DNA of 64,000 bases from Deltaproteobacteria bacterium (GCA_012728915.1 JAAYEC010000015.1:23082-87081); one strand, 5' to 3'. Shown: positions 49,126 through 64,000, counted from the stretch's first letter. Numbers and translations: made by a program. The notes: a model not told the origin generated them from the letters alone.

Positions 49126-49971
49126 TTTCCGGAAACGTTCATATCACATTGCTACGTCCGGGAACAGCCGTCCCTCGAACGAAGCAAATGCTTCGCCGAT
49201 GAAGCAATTGCTCAATCTATGCAACTTATCGAAATTCCTTATCGTTCTTCAATGGCGGGCCTCGTGACCCCGGCGGATGGAGGATATGCTTCTTTTTTTT
49301 CGATAAGCGCCGAGGGCACACGCATAAAATAATCAACAATATACGGATATTACAAACCTGCCCGGCCGGGCACGGCGATTGCTCCCAAGAAAGTCATCAC
49401 GGAAGATACGAGAGAAGGCGGCATCATGAAAAGTCTGAATGATTTCACTGAGATTTGTCAGCTGCCTGCTGATCCGATCCCGGCCTGTTCCGGAAGAACC
49501 CGGGCGCGCGTAGCGGAAGTGATGACGGATGACCCGATCCCCGTAAGGCAGGCCGGGCCCGCCGTCGGGAACGCGGCACGGGTCAGAAGGCTTCCCGGGC
49601 GCACCATAAAGTACACGAAGCGGGGGGCTGTAGGCATCATCACGGCGCAGGTGGACAATATCGGCGATGTCTTCGACGAACTCGATGCCCAGCTGGAGCG
49701 GATCGAGCGGGACGAGGAAGTCCGGGTCGTCGCCATCTACACCCTCAGCGGCCTGTTCGCCACGTTGTCCGTCCGCTGACCAACGAAGCACAGTCCGCCC
49801 GGCGGCGCGCCCTTCGCCGACCCGGGACAAACCTGACCCCCGGAAAACCATCTGGGGTGCCCCTGCGAGCCTCGCGCGTCGCCCTGTCTTCAGCGAAGAA
49901 AAGCCTTGCGGTTCGGGCACAGTAGCGTATCATCACGATGGGGAAAGGAAACCGGCCGCACCGGGGGGATC

Positions 49972-51637
<1,666 letters not shown>

Positions 51638-51651
<14 letters not shown>

Positions 51652-53008
51652 GATTCTCATCGTCGACGACGACAAGCTGCTGCAGGCATCCCTGGACGAC
51701 ATCCTGTCGGAGAGCTACGACACGCTCATCGCCGGCAGCGGCGAGGAAGCCCTGCGGCTGCTGAAGAGCCGCTCCGTCGACCTCGTCATGCTGGACATCC
51801 GGCTGCCGGGCATCAACGGGATCGAAACGCTCCGGCGCATGAAAGAGATGGGCGGCGAGACCGTCGTGATCATGATGACGGCCTATGAAGACGTCAAATC
51901 GGTCATCAGCTCCATGAAGATGGGAGCCTTCGATTACCTCGTCAAGCCCCTCGACATCGAAGAACTCGAAATCATCATCGAAAAGGCCCTCGAAAACCTG
52001 AAGCTCAAGCGGGAGGTCGAGGAACTCCGGCGGCAGTTCGTCAAGGAGTACAACCTCGACAACATCGTCGCCCAGAGCAACAGCATGAGACTCGCCCTGC
52101 GGCTGGCCGACACCATTGCCCGCAGCCACGACACCACGGTGCTGATCGAGGGGGAAACGGGAACGGGCAAGGAGGTCATCGCCCGATTCATTCACCATCG
52201 AAGCAGCCGGTTCAATAAGCCCTTCGTCAACATCAACTGCGGCGCCATCACGAAGGAACTCGTGGAGAGCGAGCTTTTCGGTTACGAGAAGGGCTCGTTC
52301 ACGGGTGGATTGCAGGAGGGAAAGCGGGGAAAATTCGAAACCGCCGACGGGGGCTCGATTCTACTCGACGAGATCAGCGAACTGCTTCCCGCAACACAGG
52401 TCAAGCTTCTCACGTTTCTCGAGGAAAAGGCCTTTTACCCCGTGGGCGGCTCCGAGAAGCGGCATGTCGATGTCCGGATCATCGCCGCCACGAACAAAAG
52501 CCTCGAGGAAGGCATCCGGGAGGGAACCTTCCGCGAGGACCTCTTCTACCGGCTGAACGTGGCCCGGATCACCATCCCGCCCCTGCGGGAGCGCCAGGCG
52601 GACATTCTGCCTCTTGCCCTCTTCTTCATGGACAAGTTCAACGAAAAATTCCGGAAGCAGTTCAGGACAATTTCCGAGGAAGCCAGGCGGCTGCTCCTGG
52701 AACACCCCTGGACCGGAAACGTCAGGGAGATCAGAAACGTCATCGAGCGCGTCGTCCTGATGGAAACCGGCGACGAGATCGAACCCGGCCATCTGGCCTT
52801 TATGAAAAAATCTTTCGGTGATGCCGCGACCGCGGCCCGGGCGATCAGACTCCCGGCGACCGGTCTGAATCTCGACGAACTGACGAAAGACCTGATCTTG
52901 CAGGCCCTGGAGCGCACAGGCGGACACCGCGGCCGGGCCGCCAAGCTCCTCGGCATCTCCCGCCCCACGATGATCTACCGCATCGAAAAGTACGGCATCA
53001 AGGTCTAG
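51638..53008 (+). CDS. Sigma-54-dependent response regulator (NtrC/AtoC family)
   Basis: The REC domain shows ILIVDDD...LVMLDIRLPG. The AAA+ domain shows GETGTGKE, the GAFTGA-type loop ELFGYEKGSFTGG and a Fis-type HTH (RAAKLLGISRPTMIYRI). The gene overlaps the kinase gene by 14 nt. Confidence 0.92.
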
Positions 53009-59285: not shown

Positions 59286-59561
59286 TCAGCCGATCATGGT
59301 CTTGATCGCATCGGCAACGGGAGAGGTGAAGAGGGCTATCATCACCGCGTAGAGCGCGAAGGAGCCGGCGGCCTCGCTCAGGTAGAGCTTCTCATACTTC
59401 TGCTTGAGCGAGAGGATCGTAAGCCCGCCGATCACGATGGCGCCGAGGTGGAAGTAGGGGAAGTTGTCCGCACCCGCGGCGGCGTATTCAGCAAAGCTGA
59501 AGGTGGCGGTGATGAGAACGACTAGGACGGTCAGGGCCAGCATCGAAAGCGACTTTTTCAT
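59286..59561 (-). CDS. Small hypothetical membrane protein (91 aa)
   Basis: A GGAGGAAA RBS is present. The protein has a signal/TM segment plus two further TM segments. Confidence 0.6.
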   Translation of the reverse strand: MKKSLSMLALTVLVVLITATFSFAEYAAAGADNFPYFHLGAIVIGGLTILSLKQKYEKLYLSEAAGSFALYAVMIALFTSPVADAIKTMIG

Positions 59562-59836
59562 TTTCTATTTCCTCCTTGCGACTGGTTTATTTCCGATCTT
59601 TGCCTTTCTCTATTGAAACGATCGTGCCAAGTCGCAACGGCGAAACAGAAAATTTGTAACTGCTGGTCATGATTGAAAAAACAGCGGTTCAGTTCAACCG
59701 CCCTTTGCGCGGGGGGGCCAGGAAAGGGGCTGCCCGTTGAATGGAACGTTCAACCGCGTTGAACGGATATTTCAAACGAAGATCTTCCCTGTCCGCAATG
59801 ATCCCCGTTCGGCCCACGGCCGAAGGGTCAGACGTC

Positions 59837-60043
59837 TCAGGTCCCGCCGTAGCCCACGGTCACTTTCCCGCCTTCGACGATGACGGGGACAAGCCTTTTG
59901 CCCCCGGAGAGCTTCAGCATCTCGGCAAGCCGCCCTGTATCCTTTTTCACATCCACGTAATCCGCCCCGGCGCCATAGGCCGACCTGGCCCTGTCCGTGT
60001 AAGGTCAGCCCGCCTTGCCGTAGATGACCGCCTTGTCCGCCAT
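59837..60043 (-). CDS. Glutaredoxin-like protein with in-frame TGA (60005-60007, complement) at the first active-site Cys (U-P-Y-T); candidate selenoprotein, absent from the ORF track
   Basis: An AGGAGG RBS lies 9 nt upstream, and the ATG is 28 nt after the rtcB stop codon. The protein is MADKAVIYGKAG-[TGA]-PYTDRARSAYGAGADYVDVKKDTGRLAEMLKLSGGKRLVPVIVEGGKVTVGYGGT. This matches the glutaredoxin pattern VxIYxKxxCPYCxxA...vP.i.i.G..igG. Confidence 0.6.
59978..59990 (-). promoter_or_regulatory. Candidate SECIS-like hairpin after the glutaredoxin-like UGA
   Basis: On the mRNA strand the sequence is GGCC-AGGUC-GGCC. The loop contains GGUC and lies ~21-25 nt after the UGA. Confidence 0.35.
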
Positions 60044-60071: not shown

Positions 60072-61514
60072 CTACCCCTTGATGCATCCGATGGCCTTGA
60101 GTCTCGCAACCTTGCGGGAGATCCCCGCACCGTGGACAACCCTGATGACCTCGTCGATATCCTTATAGGCCTCGGGGATCTCCTCGGCCAGGGTCCCCTT
60201 GGCGGCGGCCATGACGAGGACCCCGCGATCCTCCATTTCGCGGCGAATCGCGCGGCCCTTGCTGGCCTTGATGGCCGCGGCCCGGCTCAATACGCGCCCC
60301 GCGCCGTGGCAGGTGCTCCCGAAGGTCTGCTCCATGGCCCTTTCGGTCCCCACGAGCACGTAGGATCCCGCGCCCATGTCTCCGGGGATCAGCACGGGCT
60401 GGCCCGTCTTGCGGTACTTCTCCGGGAGAGCCGGGTGCCCCGGCGGGAACGCGCGGGTGGCCCCCTTGCGGTGGACGCAGAGGGTCATCTTCTTCCCGTC
60501 CACGACGTGCTCTTCGATCTTGGCGATATTGTGGCTCACATCGTAGATGAGGCGCATGCCGAGATCGCGGGGACTCAGCCCCAAGGCGCGTTCGAGGGCC
60601 TCGCCTGCCCGGTGCATGAGCATCTGGCGGTTGGCCCAGGCGTAGTTTGCCGCGCACGCCATGGCCGAAAGGTACTGCTGCCCCTCCGGCGAGCGGATGT
60701 AGGCGCAGGCAAGCTGCCTGTCCGGAAGGACGATCCCCATCCTGTCGACGTACTTCACCAGTCTTGCCAGGTAGTCGTCGCAGACCTGGTGCCCGAGGCC
60801 GCGGGAGCCGCTGTGGATCATGACGACCACCTGCCCCGTCTCGATGCCCAGGGCGGAGGCCGCGTCGCGGTCGAAGATCTCCTCGACGATCTCCACCTCG
60901 AGGAAGTGATTGCCGGAGCCCAGGGTGCCCACCTGGTCCTTTCCCCGTTCGAGGGCGCGCTCGCTGACCGCGTCCGGGTCGGCGCCGGGCAGGCAGCCCC
61001 CGTCCTCCATAGAATCCAGATCTCCGGCGGAACCATAGCCGTTTTTTACGGCCCAGCGGGCCCCCTCGGCGAGAACCTGCTTTTCTTCGCTGCGCGACAG
61101 CCTCAGGGCCCCTTTCGAGCCCACGCCCGAGGGCACATGCTGGAACAGGGCGGTGACGATCTTCTCCATCTGCGGGCGGATCTCCTCATGGTTGAGGTTG
61201 GTCGCCATCAGGCGACAGCCGCAGTTGATGTCGTACCCCACCCCTCCGGGCGAGATGACGCCGCCGTCGAGTTCGAAAGCGGCCACCCCTCCGATGGGAA
61301 AGCCGTAGCCCCAGTGCATGTCGGGCATGGCGAGCGAGTGCTTCACGATCCCCGGCAAATGGGCCACGTTGGCTACCTGCCTGGGGCTTTCGTCCTGCCC
61401 CATGGCCTTCATCAGTTTCGCGCTTGCGTAGATCATCCCGGGAACGCGCATGGAGCCTTCCCTCGGGACTTCCCAGCGGTACTCGTCGAGGCGGCGCAGC
61501 TTTACGTCAGACAT
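60072..61514 (-). CDS. rtcB: RNA-splicing ligase RtcB
   Basis: LPGIVKHSLAMPDMHWGYGFPIGGV, GYDINCGCR, GSGNHFLE, HSGSRGLGHQ and TCHGAGR are present. Confidence 0.95.
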   Translation of the reverse strand: MSDVKLRRLDEYRWEVPREGSMRVPGMIYASAKLMKAMGQDESPRQVANVAHLPGIVKHSLAMPDMHWGYGFPIGGVAAFELDGGVISPGGVGYDINCGCRLMATNLNHEEIRPQMEKIVTALFQHVPSGVGSKGALRLSRSEEKQVLAEGARWAVKNGYGSAGDLDSMEDGGCLPGADPDAVSERALERGKDQVGTLGSGNHFLEVEIVEEIFDRDAASALGIETGQVVVMIHSGSRGLGHQVCDDYLARLVKYVDRMGIVLPDRQLACAYIRSPEGQQYLSAMACAANYAWANRQMLMHRAGEALERALGLSPRDLGMRLIYDVSHNIAKIEEHVVDGKKMTLCVHRKGATRAFPPGHPALPEKYRKTGQPVLIPGDMGAGSYVLVGTERAMEQTFGSTCHGAGRVLSRAAAIKASKGRAIRREMEDRGVLVMAAAKGTLAEEIPEAYKDIDEVIRVVHGAGISRKVARLKAIGCIKG

Positions 61515-61923
61515 CGAAGATCACCCTTGCCTCCCAGCCGTCGGCCGTCTGACCGACCCGGGCCTGGTGATAGGTAACGGCCTTGATTTCCTTGCAGACC
61601 TCGTGCTTCCGCCCGTCGAGGGGCTCGCCACAAGCCTCGGCCTCGAGCGCGTTGTCCTTTACCTGTATAACGCGAATCTCCTTCAACAGCCAGCGCTCGC
61701 CATTATAGAGGTAAAGAATCTCGCGAAGGAAGTTGACGAGGAGATCCTCCGGACTGTCCCCTTCCGCATGAATTCTCCGAACCTCGAGGGCTTCAACCCG
61801 GCCCAGATCGGTGATGGTGTCGAAGACGGCGAAGGCGGCGTTTGCATAGAGATCCCCTTCCGTCTCTCCGGTTACCAGGAGACCCAGATCCGCCGTATGA
61901 TCAAACGTCTGGTATGGTTTCAT
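61507..61923 (-). CDS. Archease (RtcB activator)
   Basis: The protein begins MKPYQTFDHTADLGLLV and contains IKAVTYHQ. It overlaps the rtcB start by 8 nt (gATGTCTGAc). Confidence 0.9.
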   Translation of the reverse strand: MKPYQTFDHTADLGLLVTGETEGDLYANAAFAVFDTITDLGRVEALEVRRIHAEGDSPEDLLVNFLREILYLYNGERWLLKEIRVIQVKDNALEAEACGEPLDGRKHEVCKEIKAVTYHQARVGQTADGWEARVIFDV

Positions 61924-62179
61924 GATTCGATTCTATTGATCCTGGCGTGGGCCTGTCAACTTCCGGATCTCCCCTTTTCGCCGTTCCTGGAAGAATTGTC
62001 TCCTTTCGTCAATTTTGTCGATCCTGCCCCGTCTCTTCGGTTTTTCGACGGCCACAGGCGATTTTCTTTTTTCCAATCCTCTCAATTCCGACATTTATTG
62101 CCGGACTGCACGTCCCTCGAACGGGGCCGTCTTCGGAAAATGCTTAGCTATATCTATTGGTTACAAGACCATTGCCTTC

Positions 62180-62195
62180 TGGCACGCCTGGTGCA
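62180..62195 (+). promoter_or_regulatory. Sigma-54 (-24/-12) promoter
   Basis: TGGCACGCCTGGTGCA matches the consensus TGGCACG-N4-TTGCA. The GG and GC dinucleotides are separated by exactly 10 nt, and there is a single mismatch (G for T at the first T of TTGC). Confidence 0.7.
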
Positions 62196-62205
62196 ATATA
62201 AAAAG

Positions 62206-62358
62206 GCAACTCGTTTGACAGCACGAGTGAAACAGGAAACCGAAGAAAGCGAAGCCGGAAACCAGAAGACAAACGATCTCCTCCAGGGAGGCGACCCTCA
62301 AGGGTCGTCTCCCTCCCCCCCTGCTGCAAAGGCCCCGGCGGAAACGGGGTCTTTTTTT
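62206..62358 (+). ncRNA. Candidate sigma-54-dependent small RNA (~150 nt) ending at an intrinsic terminator
   Basis: There is no ATG and no plausible ORF between promoter and terminator. The 5' hairpin is CUCGU-UUGACAGC-ACGAG. An A/G-rich single-stranded stretch carries repeated GGAAAC/GAAAC motifs. A 12-bp hairpin GGGAGGCGACCC-UCAA-GGGUCGUCUCCC spans 62286-62313. The terminator is GGCCCCG-GCGGAAA-CGGGGUC followed by U7 (62331-62358). Confidence 0.55.
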
Positions 62359-62512
62359 GCCCGTCGAATGAGCGGGGTTTCCGTAACGAGCACTCTCCTT
62401 TCGGCGTGCTTCGCCCATTGCCGGCCGGGGCCGGCACGGTGCTTGGCTTCCTGTGAACCGCTCAGCGATCCCCGCCGTCGGCCGCCGAGGCCGGGGACCG
62501 GGCCGAAGGCCC

Positions 62513-62704
62513 TCATATGTTCATGACCTTCATGCGGTCCAGGATAGTCCGAATGATGGCCTCCCTGTGTTTCAGGCTTCGGCGGAAATCCTTGTCGTCG
62601 GTGTTGGCAATCTCGACGCGAAGGTCGTAATAATACCGTTCGATGAAGGAAAGCAGCTCCTTCTCTTCCTCAGAGCTCAGTTCCAGCTGTCCCATATCCG
62701 GCAC
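62513..62704 (-). CDS. Hypothetical protein (63 aa)
   Basis: The protein begins MPDMGQLELSSEEEKELLSFIERYYYDLRVEIANTDD. It lies 30 nt after the DUF3303-like gene on the same strand. Confidence 0.5.
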   Translation of the reverse strand: MPDMGQLELSSEEEKELLSFIERYYYDLRVEIANTDDKDFRRSLKHREAIIRTILDRMKVMNI

Positions 62705-62733
62705 CTCCTTTCAAGGCAGATGTCTCCCCGTCC

Positions 62734-63000
62734 TCATGCCCCCTGCTTCCTCACCAGATCCTTGGTCGCCCCGAGAGGCCACACGGGGAAGATCTCGAAC
62801 ATCAGCAGATTGATCCATGCCGCCCGGCAGGCGATGAGCCCTGCCGCATCGCAGTCGACCACGTAGACGGTCCGGCAACCCTGGAGATCGAAGTACTCCG
62901 AGATCACCCGCACCTCCTTCGGCCACTCCCAGTTGGCCCGCTTGGTCCTGACCTCCCGTTCGTCTTGCGGATCCCAAGTGCAAATCATCATGAACAGCAT
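62734..63000 (-). CDS. DUF3303-like small protein (88 aa)
   Basis: The protein begins MLFMMICTWDPQDEREVRTKRANWEWPKEVRVISEYFDLQG. A GGGAGGTGG RBS is present. The 176-aa track ORF is an upstream extension. Confidence 0.6.
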   Translation of the reverse strand: MLFMMICTWDPQDEREVRTKRANWEWPKEVRVISEYFDLQGCRTVYVVDCDAAGLIACRAAWINLLMFEIFPVWPLGATKDLVRKQGA

Positions 63001-63242
63001 ATGACCACCTCCCGTTCTGGACTTTTCCCCGTTACGGGCGCGCGGTGGCGACGGTGGGGATTTTCCTGCGGCCCGACGGCGGGGAACCGTTTGCTGGTGA
63101 GTTGACCTGTTGTGACGCGGACGAAAATGAACGGATGATGCCGGGATTGGAGCGCCGAGCCGTGAATGCGAGCGGGAAACGAAAACTGTGGCAAGAAACG
63201 GTCTATAATTATTTCTAGCGCGGCAACTGCGGCAAGTCAACG

Positions 63243-63278
63243 AAAAACAGCCGGGCGGTCCCATCGCCCGCCCGGCTG
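63243..63278 (-). terminator. Intrinsic terminator after the DUF4124-glutaredoxin gene
   Basis: On the minus strand the sequence is CAGCCGGGCGG-9 nt-CCGCCCGGCTG (11-bp stem), followed by TTTTT. Confidence 0.75.
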
Positions 63279-63310
63279 TACGGAGTCATCGTTTCGGGCC
63301 GGTGCGGCCG

Positions 63311-63784
63311 CTACTCCTTGAAGATCTCGTTGAGGCGGCTCTGATTGAATCCGACGATCACCTCATCGCCTACGACGATCACGGGCACGCCCGTCTGCCC
63401 GGAAATCTTCACCATCTCGTCGAGCCCGCTACGGTCGCTCGTGATATCGATTTCCCTGTAGCGGATCTTCTTGTCCCGAAGCCAGGCCTTTGCCCGGTGG
63501 CACCAGGGGCAGGTCGGCGTCGTGTAGATGGTGACCTCTGCAGGACGGACGCGGAACACCTTGTTCTCTGCAGGCGGCCCTGCCTTCGCCCCCTTGTCGG
63601 CATCCTCCACCGCGATCGCCTGGGCAGCGTCCATCTTTCCTTCCGGCGGGCTCTCCGAGACATGGACCACTCCCCGGTCATCGACCCAGCGGTAGAGGAT
63701 CGCGGCACCGCTCAGACCGGCGATGAGGGTCACAGCGAATGCGGCCGCGACGGCTAACCACAGGAGGCAGGGCGCTCGTCTCAT
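63311..63784 (-). CDS. Membrane-anchored DUF4124-like + glutaredoxin protein (Cys form, CPWC)
   Basis: ILYRWVDDRGVVHVSESPP is DUF4124-like. It is followed by VTIYTTPTCPWCHRAKAWL...GVPVIVVGDEVIVGF. Confidence 0.8.
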   Translation of the reverse strand: MRRAPCLLWLAVAAAFAVTLIAGLSGAAILYRWVDDRGVVHVSESPPEGKMDAAQAIAVEDADKGAKAGPPAENKVFRVRPAEVTIYTTPTCPWCHRAKAWLRDKKIRYREIDITSDRSGLDEMVKISGQTGVPVIVVGDEVIVGFNQSRLNEIFKE

Positions 63785-63839
63785 TCGGAAGACTCCTTAT
63801 TCCATCTCTTTGATCATTGGACCGTGCCTCCCCGATACC

Positions 63840-63964
63840 AGACTGTGTCATAATCAGTTCTCGTCATTGCGAGCGACCGAAGGGAGCGCGGCACAATCTT
63901 TTCGATACCATCCTGGATTGCTTCAGTCGCTTCGCTCCTTCGCAATGACATGGTGACACAGTCT
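63840..63964. repeat. Imperfect ~125-bp palindromic element (MITE/REP-like)
   Basis: The outer arms are AGACTGTGTCA (63840-63850) and TGACACAGTCT (63954-63964). The inner arms are GTCATTGCGA (63864-63873) and TCGCAATGAC (63940-63949). The core resembles the widespread GTCATTGCGAGCG...CGCTCGCAATGAC repeat class. Confidence 0.65.
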
Positions 63965-64000
63965 CTACGGCGGGAGGGTTTTCCTGTCCAATCGGTCCGG

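What the first reader, a model, noticed from the sequence alone, without database searches (positions are those of the whole stretch)
62180..62358. Near-consensus sigma-54 promoter driving an orphan, terminator-bounded ~150-nt transcript (candidate sRNA) divergent from archease-rtcB
Seen in sequence. TGGCACGCCTGGTGCA (62180-62195) has the invariant GG and GC with exact spacing. About 10 nt downstream begins a segment with no ATG and no credible ORF. It contains a 5-bp hairpin and a ~50-nt A/G-rich stretch with repeated GGAAAC/GAAAC/GAAGAAAG motifs. It also contains a 12-bp GC-rich hairpin with a UCAA tetraloop and a textbook intrinsic terminator (7-bp stem plus U7, ending at 62358). No plus-strand gene follows. 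Sigma-54-dependent sRNAs are known elsewhere (Qrr, GlmY/Z, Pxr), so the architecture is plausible. An NtrC-family activator and its kinase lie about 9 kb upstream (49972-53008), but I could not identify a binding site. In other bacteria rtcBA is controlled by sigma-54 through RtcR. Here the sigma-54 promoter points away from rtcB.
Basis: partly seen in the sequence, partly recalled or inferred. Interest (0 to 1): 0.66.

Follow-up and report, generated by a model that had tools for sequence, protein, structure and literature searches.

The report
Conserved sigma-54-driven small RNA gene
The flagged stretch is a real, strongly conserved gene for a roughly 150-base non-coding RNA in a group of uncultured Syntrophales bacteria, with a complete sigma-54 promoter, and it matches no described RNA family, though its target and signal are unknown.

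Summary
No expression data were available.

- **Conservation.** Thirty-four distinct homologues were found, all from one Syntrophales clade. They keep the -24/-12 promoter, a 5' hairpin, an invariant AGGAAACCGA, an A-rich linker, the core AACGAUCUCCUCC plus a 13-bp hairpin plus a C-run, and the terminator. The flanking DNA is only 35-50% identical.
- **Promoter region.** It has two related upstream boxes at about -110 and -190, and an IHF-like site. Box-to-promoter spacing changes in 11-bp steps (105, 94 or 83 bp), as expected for enhancer-dependent promoters.
- **Not coding.** There is no conserved ORF.
- **Family.** No Rfam family matches, and three full-text literature searches found no description of it.
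- **Second context.** The whole cassette also occurs next to integrase genes.
- **Likely mode (inferred).** It acts in trans by base-pairing, using C/U-rich anti-Shine-Dalgarno-like segments.
- **Unknown.** The activator and the targets were not identified. No link to RtcB function was found.

Verdict: a new member of a known kind, of moderate interest.

The parts
62008..62023 (.). Box 2, TCGTCAATTTTGTCGA: the distal candidate activator-binding site, about -190 from the RNA start. It is an imperfect inverted repeat of the form TCGNCA..TGNCGA.
   Evidence: GTCAwTwTTGTC is conserved in all relatives. It lies 79-81 bp from Box 1 in 29 of 33 sequences. The integrase-associated duplicate of the cassette also keeps it.
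62087..62103 (.). Box 1, TCCGACATTTATTGCCG (family consensus TTCGACAwTTrTTGCCG): the proximal candidate activator-binding site, about -110.
   Evidence: It is 95.7% identical across 15 sequences, against 37-50% for the DNA on either side. Spacing to the -24 GG is 105 bp (20 sequences), 94 bp (5) or 83 bp (1), that is, steps of 11 bp. It is found only at RNA loci in about 0.9 Mb of fetched DNA.
62151..62163 (+). IHF-like site TATCTATTGGTTA (consensus WATCAANNNNTTR, 1 mismatch), lying between Box 1 and the promoter.
   Evidence: A match with at most 1 mismatch occurs in 21 of 36 sequences. The best match starts 30-32 nt upstream of the GG in 26 of 36.
62180..62195 (+). Sigma-54-type promoter TGGCACGCCTGGTGCA, with -24 GG at 62181-2 and -12 GC at 62193-4.
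   Evidence: The family consensus is yGGCAyGG-N3-GGTGCAAwAC, and GG and GC are invariant with fixed spacing in 36 sequences. The promoter block is 89.7% identical. The window is enriched for such sites.
62206..62358 (+). Predicted non-coding RNA of about 150 nt. The start is inferred from the promoter geometry and from where conservation begins.
   Evidence: There are 34 distinct homologues (alignment A6). The covariance model R1 scores the window copy at 151 bits. No Rfam family matches.
62209..62228 (+). 5' hairpin: 6 bp with the conserved loop UUyGACAGC.
   Evidence: Mean pair probability is 0.93 across the family. The innermost pair occurs as U.G, C-G, U-A and A-U.
62234..62243 (+). Invariant segment AGGAAACCGA.
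   Evidence: GGAAACCGA is invariant in all 34 sequences of alignment A6. The segment is 95% identical in alignment A4.
62244..62271 (+). A/G-rich linker. Its sequence and length vary, but its composition is kept.
   Evidence: It is 64.6% identical and carries indels of 1-4 nt. It is predicted to be unpaired.
62272..62285 (+). Invariant AACGAUCUCCUCCA: an anti-Shine-Dalgarno-like segment directly 5' of hairpin 2.
   Evidence: It is invariant in all homologues. For the metagenome hits, CTCCTCCAGGGAGG was part of the search pattern, but this was not so for the 15 synteny-derived sequences. It is predicted to be partly accessible.
62285..62314 (+). Hairpin 2: a 13-bp G+C-rich stem with a variable 4-8 nt loop.
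   Evidence: Mean pair probability is 0.93. The lower 10 pairs barely vary: eight are invariant, and A-U fails once at each of 86-118 and 90-114. The upper pairs change as U.G, C-G and U-A, and the G.U pair becomes G-C in 6 sequences.
62315..62322 (+). C-run CCCCCCCU. It is the most accessible conserved segment and therefore a candidate seed.
   Evidence: The C-run is conserved but not strictly invariant: its length varies by one C in a few sequences, and L136 has lost it. Mean unpaired probability is about 0.9.
62331..62358 (+). Intrinsic terminator: a 7-bp stem, a 7-nt loop and U7. In most relatives an A-run precedes it, so it can also terminate the convergent DUF3303-orf60 operon.
   Evidence: The stem keeps pairing through changes in relatives. 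The block is 92% identical, against 34.5% for the DNA just after it.

Best explanation
Window 62008-62358 is a self-contained gene cassette for a small non-coding RNA.

**What the sequence and comparison show**
- A dimeric DNA-binding activator probably binds two related imperfect inverted repeats, Box 2 at about -190 and Box 1 at about -110.
- An IHF-like site at about -50 would bend the DNA.
- RNA polymerase carrying sigma-54 would sit at the -24/-12 element (62180-62195) and start at about 62206.
- Transcription would stop at the intrinsic terminator that ends at 62358.
- The product is about 150 nt. It has a 5' hairpin, an invariant AGGAAACCGA, an unstructured A/G-rich linker, the invariant AACGAUCUCCUCC, a very stable 13-bp hairpin, an exposed C-run and the terminator.

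**What is inferred**
- The RNA acts in trans by base-pairing. Its exposed C/U-rich segments (CUCCUCC and UCCCCCCCU) would pair with G-rich ribosome-binding regions of mRNAs and lower their translation.
- The A-rich linker and the U-tail would suit a chaperone such as Hfq.

**What is unknown**
The signal, the activator and the targets are all unknown. I put about 0.85 on 'sigma-54-dependent non-coding RNA gene' and about 0.5 on the base-pairing, anti-Shine-Dalgarno mode.
For: **Conservation**
- The cassette is conserved in 34 distinct homologues, while the spacers and flanks are only 35-50% identical.
- GG and GC are invariant with fixed spacing, and conservation of the RNA begins about 24 nt after the GG.
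- The window is enriched for near-consensus sigma-54 sites, with 3 found against 0.41 expected.

**Promoter architecture**
- Box 1 to promoter spacing is 105, 94 or 83 bp, that is, whole helical turns. Box 2 to Box 1 spacing is fixed at 79-81 bp. An IHF-like site sits at a fixed position.
- The complete cassette, both boxes included, was duplicated into a second genomic context.

**RNA structure**
- Hairpin 1, hairpin 2 and the terminator have mean pair probabilities of 0.87-0.93 in all homologues.
- 97.6% of cells are paired, against 44-52% when the partners are slid. Four pairs carry compensatory changes.

**Not coding, not a known family**
- No start codon is conserved, and indels that are not multiples of three occur in the linker and the hairpin loop.
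- No known RNA family matches.
- The organism uses sigma-54 activators.
Against: - No transcript evidence of any kind was available.
- All homologues come from one narrow clade, so most stem positions never vary and covariation rests on a handful of pairs.
- Both arms of hairpin 2 are sequence-invariant. A simple structural hairpin does not need that, which hints at protein recognition or another role.
- No target could be established. The best local candidate is the 5' region of the neighbouring orf60, but it is only moderately and inconsistently favoured.
- The cognate activator is unidentified, and rpoN is not in the window.
- The -12 element reads GTGCA rather than TTGCA.
- The simple terminator scan did not list the terminator.
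Confidence: 0.7

Rival explanations
1. The RNA sequesters or is bound by a protein rather than pairing with mRNAs. The invariant hairpin 2 and its flanks would be a sequence-specific protein-binding site. Alternatively, the two conserved GGA motifs would bind a CsrA dimer, or the A-rich linker would titrate Hfq as CrcZ does.
For: Both arms of hairpin 2 and the flanking sequences are invariant without covariation in the lower 10 pairs. There are two conserved GGA motifs, AGGAAAC and CAGGGAGG, about 50 nt apart, plus an A-rich linker.
Against: Only two GGA motifs are conserved, and neither sits in a hairpin loop. Known CsrA sponges carry many. The linker sequence itself is not conserved. No csrA or hfq gene was seen in the window by motif search, which is weak evidence because the window is only 64 kb.
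Confidence: 0.15
2. The element acts in cis. It could be a transcribed leader or attenuator for a downstream gene. Alternatively, convergent transcription and a shared bidirectional terminator could modulate the DUF3303-orf60 operon.
For: In the duplicated context, a 75-aa ORF follows on the same strand about 70 nt after a weaker terminator. In most relatives the terminator is flanked by an A-run and a T-run and lies about 20 nt from the orf60 stop.
Against: In the main context, which includes all 23 loci with archease sequence, no co-directional gene follows, and the next three genes are convergent. The terminator there is strong. The sequence conservation far exceeds what a terminator or transcriptional interference needs.
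Confidence: 0.08
3. There is no stable RNA product. The conserved blocks would be DNA-level regulatory sites, such as operators and a terminator, for the neighbouring archease-rtcB and DUF3303-orf60 operons.
For: Box 2 lies about 90 bp upstream of the archease start. The hairpin-1 DNA is a palindrome that shares TTCGACA with Box 1.
Against: The duplicated cassette lacks archease, DUF3303 and orf60, yet it keeps the boxes, the promoter, the RNA body and the terminator. A 50-nt invariant block flanked by a promoter and a terminator on the same strand is not what operator sites look like. Archease has its own conserved sigma-70-type promoter.
Confidence: 0.05
4. It encodes a small protein.
For: A GTG at 62227 opens a frame in the window that runs through the terminator.
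Against: That GTG is GTT or GTC in some relatives. Indels of 1-4 nt in the linker and the hairpin loop shift the frame. There is no Shine-Dalgarno sequence before it, and the frame crosses the terminator.
Confidence: 0.01

Closest known systems
Qrr small RNAs of Vibrio (activated by LuxO with sigma-54)
   Same: Both are stand-alone RNAs of about 100-150 nt made from a sigma-54 promoter with an upstream activator site at about -100. Both end in an intrinsic terminator. Both can occur in more than one copy ('sibling' RNAs; PMC4211561, and my own knowledge).
   Different: There is no sequence or structure match. The taxon, hairpin layout and conserved core all differ. The upstream boxes, of the form TCGNCA..TGNCG, are not the LuxO site TTGCAwwwTGCAA (the LuxO site is from my own knowledge).
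GlmY/GlmZ of enterobacteria (activated by GlrR/QseF with sigma-54)
   Same: These are also sigma-54-dependent small RNA genes with activator sites and IHF sites upstream (PMC4152352, and my own knowledge).
   Different: There is no homology. GlmY acts as a decoy for RapZ. No glmS context or comparable structure is present here.
Small RNAs with C/U-rich anti-Shine-Dalgarno motifs: the cuckoo/CcsR family, alpha-r14/NfeR1, the Betaproteobacteria toxic sRNA, and RsaE/RoxS
   Same: All carry exposed CCUCC-type or C-run segments thought or shown to pair with ribosome-binding sites (PMC4615179, PMC8034643, PMC10746234). The weak Rfam alignment to RF02278 runs through the CUCC-rich 3' arm of hairpin 2, the C-run and the terminator.
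   Different: Those families place CCUCCUCCC in hairpin loops. Here CUCCUCC is unpaired 5' of a hairpin, and a C7 run lies 3' of it. The RF02278 score is 16.6 bits against a gathering score of 50 (E = 1.1), and no hit to cuckoo or alpha-r14 appeared. The promoter type and the phylum also differ.
Y-RNA-like YrlA/YrlB in the Salmonella rsr-yrlBA-rtcBA operon (controlled by RtcR with sigma-54)
   Same: A non-coding RNA gene sits next to rtcB, and sigma-54 control operates at the locus (my own knowledge).
   Different: Here the sigma-54 promoter drives only the RNA and points away from rtcB. Archease-rtcB has its own conserved sigma-70-type leaderless promoter. No Rfam Y-RNA or tRNA-like match was found. 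No rsr or rtcR gene is nearby. More distant Syntrophales archease loci have neither a sigma-54 site nor an activator gene. The duplicated cassette lacks rtcB.

Membership tests
Sigma-54 (enhancer-dependent) promoter | GG at -24 and GC at -12 with exact spacing, close to TGGCACG-N4-TTGCW | tested here: met
   The window copy matches 11 of the 12 specified positions. GG and GC are invariant with fixed spacing in 36 sequences. The window holds 3 such sites against 0.41 expected.
Sigma-54 (enhancer-dependent) promoter | Upstream activator sites at about -80 to -200, phased with the promoter | tested here: met
   Box 1 and Box 2 are conserved. Box 1 to GG spacing is 105, 94 or 83 bp, in 11-bp steps, with one exception at 100 bp.
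Sigma-54 (enhancer-dependent) promoter | A DNA-bending (IHF) site between the enhancer and the promoter | tested here: inconclusive
   A match to WATCAANNNNTTR with at most 1 mismatch occurs in 21 of 36 sequences, mostly at a fixed position. The region is A/T-rich, and no chance control was run.
Sigma-54 (enhancer-dependent) promoter | Transcription depends on RpoN and a cognate AAA+ activator | not testable with these tools
   Activators exist in the genome, at window 51638-53008 and L142:4802-7633. None is linked to the boxes. rpoN is not in the window.
Intrinsic (Rho-independent) terminator | G+C-rich stem-loop followed by a U-tract | tested here: met
   There is a 7-bp stem, a 7-nt loop and U7. 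It is conserved with pair-preserving changes. The simple scan did not list it.
Any described RNA family (Rfam 15, including Qrr, GlmY/GlmZ, Pxr, cuckoo, alpha-r14, YrlA and 6S) | Covariance-model score at or above the gathering threshold | tested here: not met
   There were 0 hits at gathering scores over the whole window. The best hits at E up to 10 were RF04085 mir-1271 (16.7 bits against a gathering score of 80.5) and RF02278 (16.6 bits against 50), both at E = 1.1.
Cuckoo/CcsR and alpha-r14 anti-Shine-Dalgarno small RNAs | CCUCCUCCC motif displayed in hairpin loops | tested here: not met
   The 9-mer is absent. CUCCUCC is unpaired 5' of hairpin 2, the loop of hairpin 2 is variable, and the loop of hairpin 1 is UUyGACAGC.
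CsrA/RsmA-sequestering RNAs | Many GGA motifs, mostly in hairpin loops | tested here: not met
   Only two GGA motifs are conserved, and neither is in a loop.
Hfq-dependent base-pairing small RNAs | Terminator hairpin with a U-tail plus an A-rich or U-rich internal binding site; Hfq binding | tested here: inconclusive
   The U-tail and the A/G-rich unpaired linker are present. Binding cannot be tested, and no hfq gene is in the window.
Small protein-coding gene | Conserved start codon and reading frame | tested here: not met
   There is no ATG. The GTG is not conserved, and frame-breaking indels occur.

The most novel reading that the evidence does not exclude
The RNA is more than a routine regulator. 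Its invariant GAUCUCCUCC copies the 16S rRNA 3' tail (GAUCACCUCC), and its core also holds an internal Shine-Dalgarno-like GGGAGG. Under sigma-54 control it would compete with ribosomes for strong Shine-Dalgarno sites across the whole cell. Alternatively, it could be a substrate or partner of the adjacent archease-RtcB RNA-repair system. In addition, the complete enhancer-promoter-RNA cassette would move as a portable unit, as suggested by the copy beside integrase genes.
Probability: 0.1. Interest if true: 0.7.

Novelty: new member of a known kind. Interest (0 to 1): 0.45.

Why it matters
Syntrophales are key partners in methane-producing degradation of fatty acids and aromatic compounds. They are mostly uncultured, and in three full-text literature searches I found no small RNA described for them.

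This is a high-confidence RNA regulator with a complete, readable control region. It gives a concrete handle for metatranscriptomics, because the organism occurs in hundreds of public assemblies. It also gives a sequence motif, Box 1 and Box 2, with which the cognate sigma-54 activator and its regulon could be found in full genomes.

In addition, it shows that a sigma-54 element beside rtcB need not be an RtcR-type circuit.

Tried and rejected
- **Known RNA families.** Rfam was searched at gathering thresholds and at E up to 10, and nothing matched.
- **Short core pattern.** The 17-mer core gave 14 hits in viral contigs, all chance matches. I therefore used a two-motif pattern for the single metagenome scan. 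One of its 24 hits, L138, was false.
- **More distant relatives.** The covariance model R1 was run against 77 more distant Syntrophales archease loci. It returned only terminator-plus-A-rich noise at 14-20 bits.
- **RtcR-type arrangement.** No sigma-54 promoter or GAFTGA activator lies near archease in those 77 loci.
- **Long-range helix.** RNAalifold proposed AGGA/UCCU plus CG/CG. Both sides are invariant, so it cannot be tested, and its mean pair probability is only 0.10. I dropped it.
- **Targets.**
  - Complements of the invariant segments in the window mostly fall in coding EEI codons or occur at chance level.
  - The orf60 5' region gives a cofold gain of -21.5 kcal/mol, which would rank about third against the 215 other start regions in the window.
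  - In relatives it ranks only in about the top 10% on average, and the G-run is lost in several of them. I treat it as a lead only.
- **Activator.**
  - The REC-only protein beside the duplicate copy is just 34% identical to the window's NtrC-type regulator.
  - NCBIfam gives that regulator no equivalog-level assignment.
  - The 943-aa activator just outside the window has no DNA-binding domain.
  - Neither box occurs elsewhere in about 85 kb of this genome; Box 1 was also absent from the other fetched loci (about 0.9 Mb in all).
- **Literature.** Three full-text searches found no prior description.

Full report

Yes. Reading 60500-64000 shows the following:
- TGGCACGCCTGGTGCA lies at 62180-62195, with GG and GC in the canonical register.
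- A 6-bp hairpin spans 62209-62228.
- An A/G-rich stretch follows.
- A hairpin of 12 bp plus a closing A-U pair, with a UCAA loop, spans 62285-62314.
- A C7 run follows it.
- The terminator has a 7-bp stem and T7, ending at 62358.

The RNA folds more stably than shuffles (-56.4 kcal/mol, z = -2.6).

At up to 2 mismatches the promoter pattern is no more frequent than chance. At up to 1 mismatch there are 3 sites against 0.41 expected, and no shuffle of 100 reached 3. All three sites are intergenic. The others lie before the kinase-regulator operon (49368) and before a 91-aa membrane ORF (59629, - strand).

The gene order is as described. Archease (61923..61507) and rtcB (61514..60072) are divergent from the RNA. 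A 60-aa ORF, a DUF3303 protein and a DUF4124-glutaredoxin are convergent with it.

**2. Source organism and relatives**

The archease protein occurs with exactly this sequence in about 600 blocks of the public assembly index. The locus is 100% identical in three metagenome contigs. Its relatives are Syntrophales genomes assembled from metagenomes.

Homologues of the RNA region were collected in three ways:
- Neighbourhoods of archease homologues gave 15 distinct sequences.
- A two-motif DNA pattern scan of metagenome contigs gave 24 loci, of which 23 were true.
- Together these gave 34 distinct full-length copies (alignment A6).

All carriers with archease sequence have archease at least 71% identical to the window's. 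The 77 more distant Syntrophales and Desulfobacterota archease loci have no copy within 4 kb, by nhmmer or by covariance model.

**3. What is conserved**

Mean pairwise identity by segment:

| Segment | Identity |
|---|---|
| Before Box 1 | 50% |
| Box 1 | 96% |
| Spacer | 37% |
| IHF-like site | 63% |
| Promoter | 90% |
| Hairpin 1 | 90% |
| AGGAAACCGA | 95% |
| Linker | 65% |
| Core | 92% (the differences lie in the loop) |
| Terminator | 92% |
| Downstream | 35% |

The conserved unit therefore runs exactly from the promoter to the terminator, plus discrete upstream boxes. The family promoter is yGGCAyGG-N3-GGTGCAAwAC. The RNA's conservation begins about 24 nt after the first G of the GG, where a sigma-54 start is expected.

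**4. Promoter architecture**

Two upstream boxes are conserved:
- Box 1, TTCGACAwTTrTTGCCG, at 62087-62103.
- Box 2, TCGTCAwTTTTGTCGA, at 62008-62023.

Both read as imperfect inverted repeats of TCGNCA. The evidence for a functional enhancer is as follows:
- The distance from Box 1 to the GG is 105 bp in 20 sequences, 104-107 bp in 6, 94 bp in 5 and 83 bp in 1, with a single outlier at 100 bp. The length changes come in 11-bp steps, which keep the box on the same face of the helix.
- The distance from Box 2 to Box 1 is 79-81 bp in 29 of 33 sequences.
- A match to the IHF consensus with at most 1 mismatch is present in 21 of 36 sequences. The best match starts 30-32 nt before the GG in 26 of 36.

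This is the standard layout of an enhancer-dependent promoter. In the roughly 85 kb of this genome that I could read (window plus L142), neither box occurs away from the RNA cassette; Box 1 was also absent from the other fetched loci, about 0.9 Mb in all.

**5. The RNA**

- Hairpin 1, hairpin 2 and the terminator have mean pair probabilities of 0.93, 0.93 and 0.87 across all homologues.
- On A6, 97.6% of cells pair, against 44-52% when partners are slid.
- Four pairs carry compensatory changes. The innermost pair of hairpin 1 occurs as U.G, C-G, U-A and A-U.
- Most stem positions never vary, because the clade is narrow.
- The long-range helix proposed by RNAalifold is invariant on both sides and has low probability (0.10), so I do not include it.
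- No reading frame is conserved.
- The most accessible conserved segments are the C-run and, in part, AACGAUCUCCUCC.

**6. A second context**

Six contigs (L121, L125, L126, L133, L136, L137) carry the cassette without archease, DUF3303 or orf60.
- The copy includes a remnant of the archease -35 region, Box 2, Box 1, the IHF-like site, the promoter, the RNA and a weaker terminator.
- A 75-aa ORF follows it on the same strand. A receiver-only protein and two tyrosine recombinases lie nearby.
- One metagenome (Ga0316621) yielded both contexts. Whether one genome holds both copies is unknown.
- Both boxes travelled with the RNA. This argues that they serve the RNA promoter rather than the archease promoter.

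**7. Relation to archease-rtcB**

Archease has its own conserved TTGACA-N17/18-TAGAAT placed 6-7 nt before the ATG, which implies a leaderless mRNA. I found no sigma-54 site facing rtcB. More distant archease loci have no RtcR-type activator or sigma-54 site. The linkage looks like conserved neighbourhood in a narrow clade, not a demonstrated functional tie.

**8. Mechanism**

*Shown by sequence and comparison:* this is an enhancer-dependent promoter cassette producing a terminated, structured, non-coding RNA.

*Inferred:* the RNA pairs in trans through its C/U-rich exposed segments with G-rich ribosome-binding regions, by analogy with small RNAs that carry CCUCC or C-run seeds (PMC4615179, PMC8034643, PMC10746234). 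The A-rich linker and U-tail would suit a chaperone.

*Targets:* the orf60 5' region pairs on both sides of hairpin 2 in the window (cofold gain -21.5 kcal/mol, against a control mean of -9.1 and sd of 4.2). In relatives it is only moderately favoured, and in some the site is lost.

*Activator:* it remains unidentified.

**9. Comparison with known systems and verdict**

It works like Qrr, GlmY and other sigma-54-dependent small RNAs at the promoter level. It resembles anti-Shine-Dalgarno small RNAs in its candidate seed. It is a member of none of these families.

No description turned up in three full-text literature searches. It is a new RNA family of a known kind. The evidence that the gene is real is strong, and its function is open.

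Noticed in passing
window 60043..59837 (- strand): A glutaredoxin-like ORF has an in-frame TGA at codon 13 (MADKAVIYGKAG-TGA-PYTD...), followed by a GGCCAGGUCGGCC hairpin. The TGA and the protein sequence on both sides are conserved in about 18 relatives, and the paralogue in the window has CPWC at this position. With Cys in place of the TGA, the protein matches Pfam Glutaredoxin (E = 2e-7). It is probably a selenoprotein.
   Followed up: yes
window 61959..61923 (- strand): Archease-rtcB has a conserved TTGACA-N17/18-TAGAAT promoter only 6-7 nt before the ATG in all 18 relatives examined. This implies a leaderless mRNA.
   Followed up: partly
window 59629..59614 (- strand) and 49368-49383 (+ strand): Two further sites lie one mismatch from the sigma-54 consensus. 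TGGCACGATCGTTTCA sits before a 91-aa membrane ORF (59561..59286), and a similar site is seen in L139. GGGCACGGCGATTGCT sits before the GAF-PAS kinase / NtrC-type regulator operon (49906-53008). Neither has the Box 1 or Box 2 motif.
   Followed up: partly
L142:4802-7633 (about 4.5-7.5 kb beyond the window's right end): A 943-aa protein fuses a sigma-54 AAA+ activator domain (127-374) to an MshEN domain (447-530) and a GspE/PilB-type secretion ATPase (560-937). It has no HTH. It lies in a conserved S1 / YbjQ-like / fusion gene row that is also seen in L084 and L102.
   Followed up: partly
L133:1300-4700, L136, L121, L125, L126, L137: A duplicate of the whole enhancer-promoter-RNA cassette lies beside a 75-aa ORF, a receiver-only response regulator and two tyrosine recombinases. 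This suggests movement on or next to a mobile element.
   Followed up: partly
window 62215-62221 versus 62088-62094: In most relatives, the loop of the RNA's 5' hairpin (TTCGACAGC) shares the heptamer TTCGACA with Box 1. This may be coincidence, or it may be a third regulator half-site at about +10.
   Followed up: no
window 62359-62512: A G+C-rich spacer of about 154 nt with several short hairpins lies between the RNA terminator and the orf60 stop. In many relatives this gap is only about 20 nt, and in a few it is also about 150 nt. Only sub-threshold Rfam noise was found here.
   Followed up: no
window 63856-63950: An imperfect inverted repeat (GTCATTGCGAGCGACCGAAGGGAGCG ... CGCTTCGCTCCTTCGCAATGAC) lies in the intergenic region after the DUF4124-glutaredoxin gene. 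It was seen by eye.
   Followed up: no
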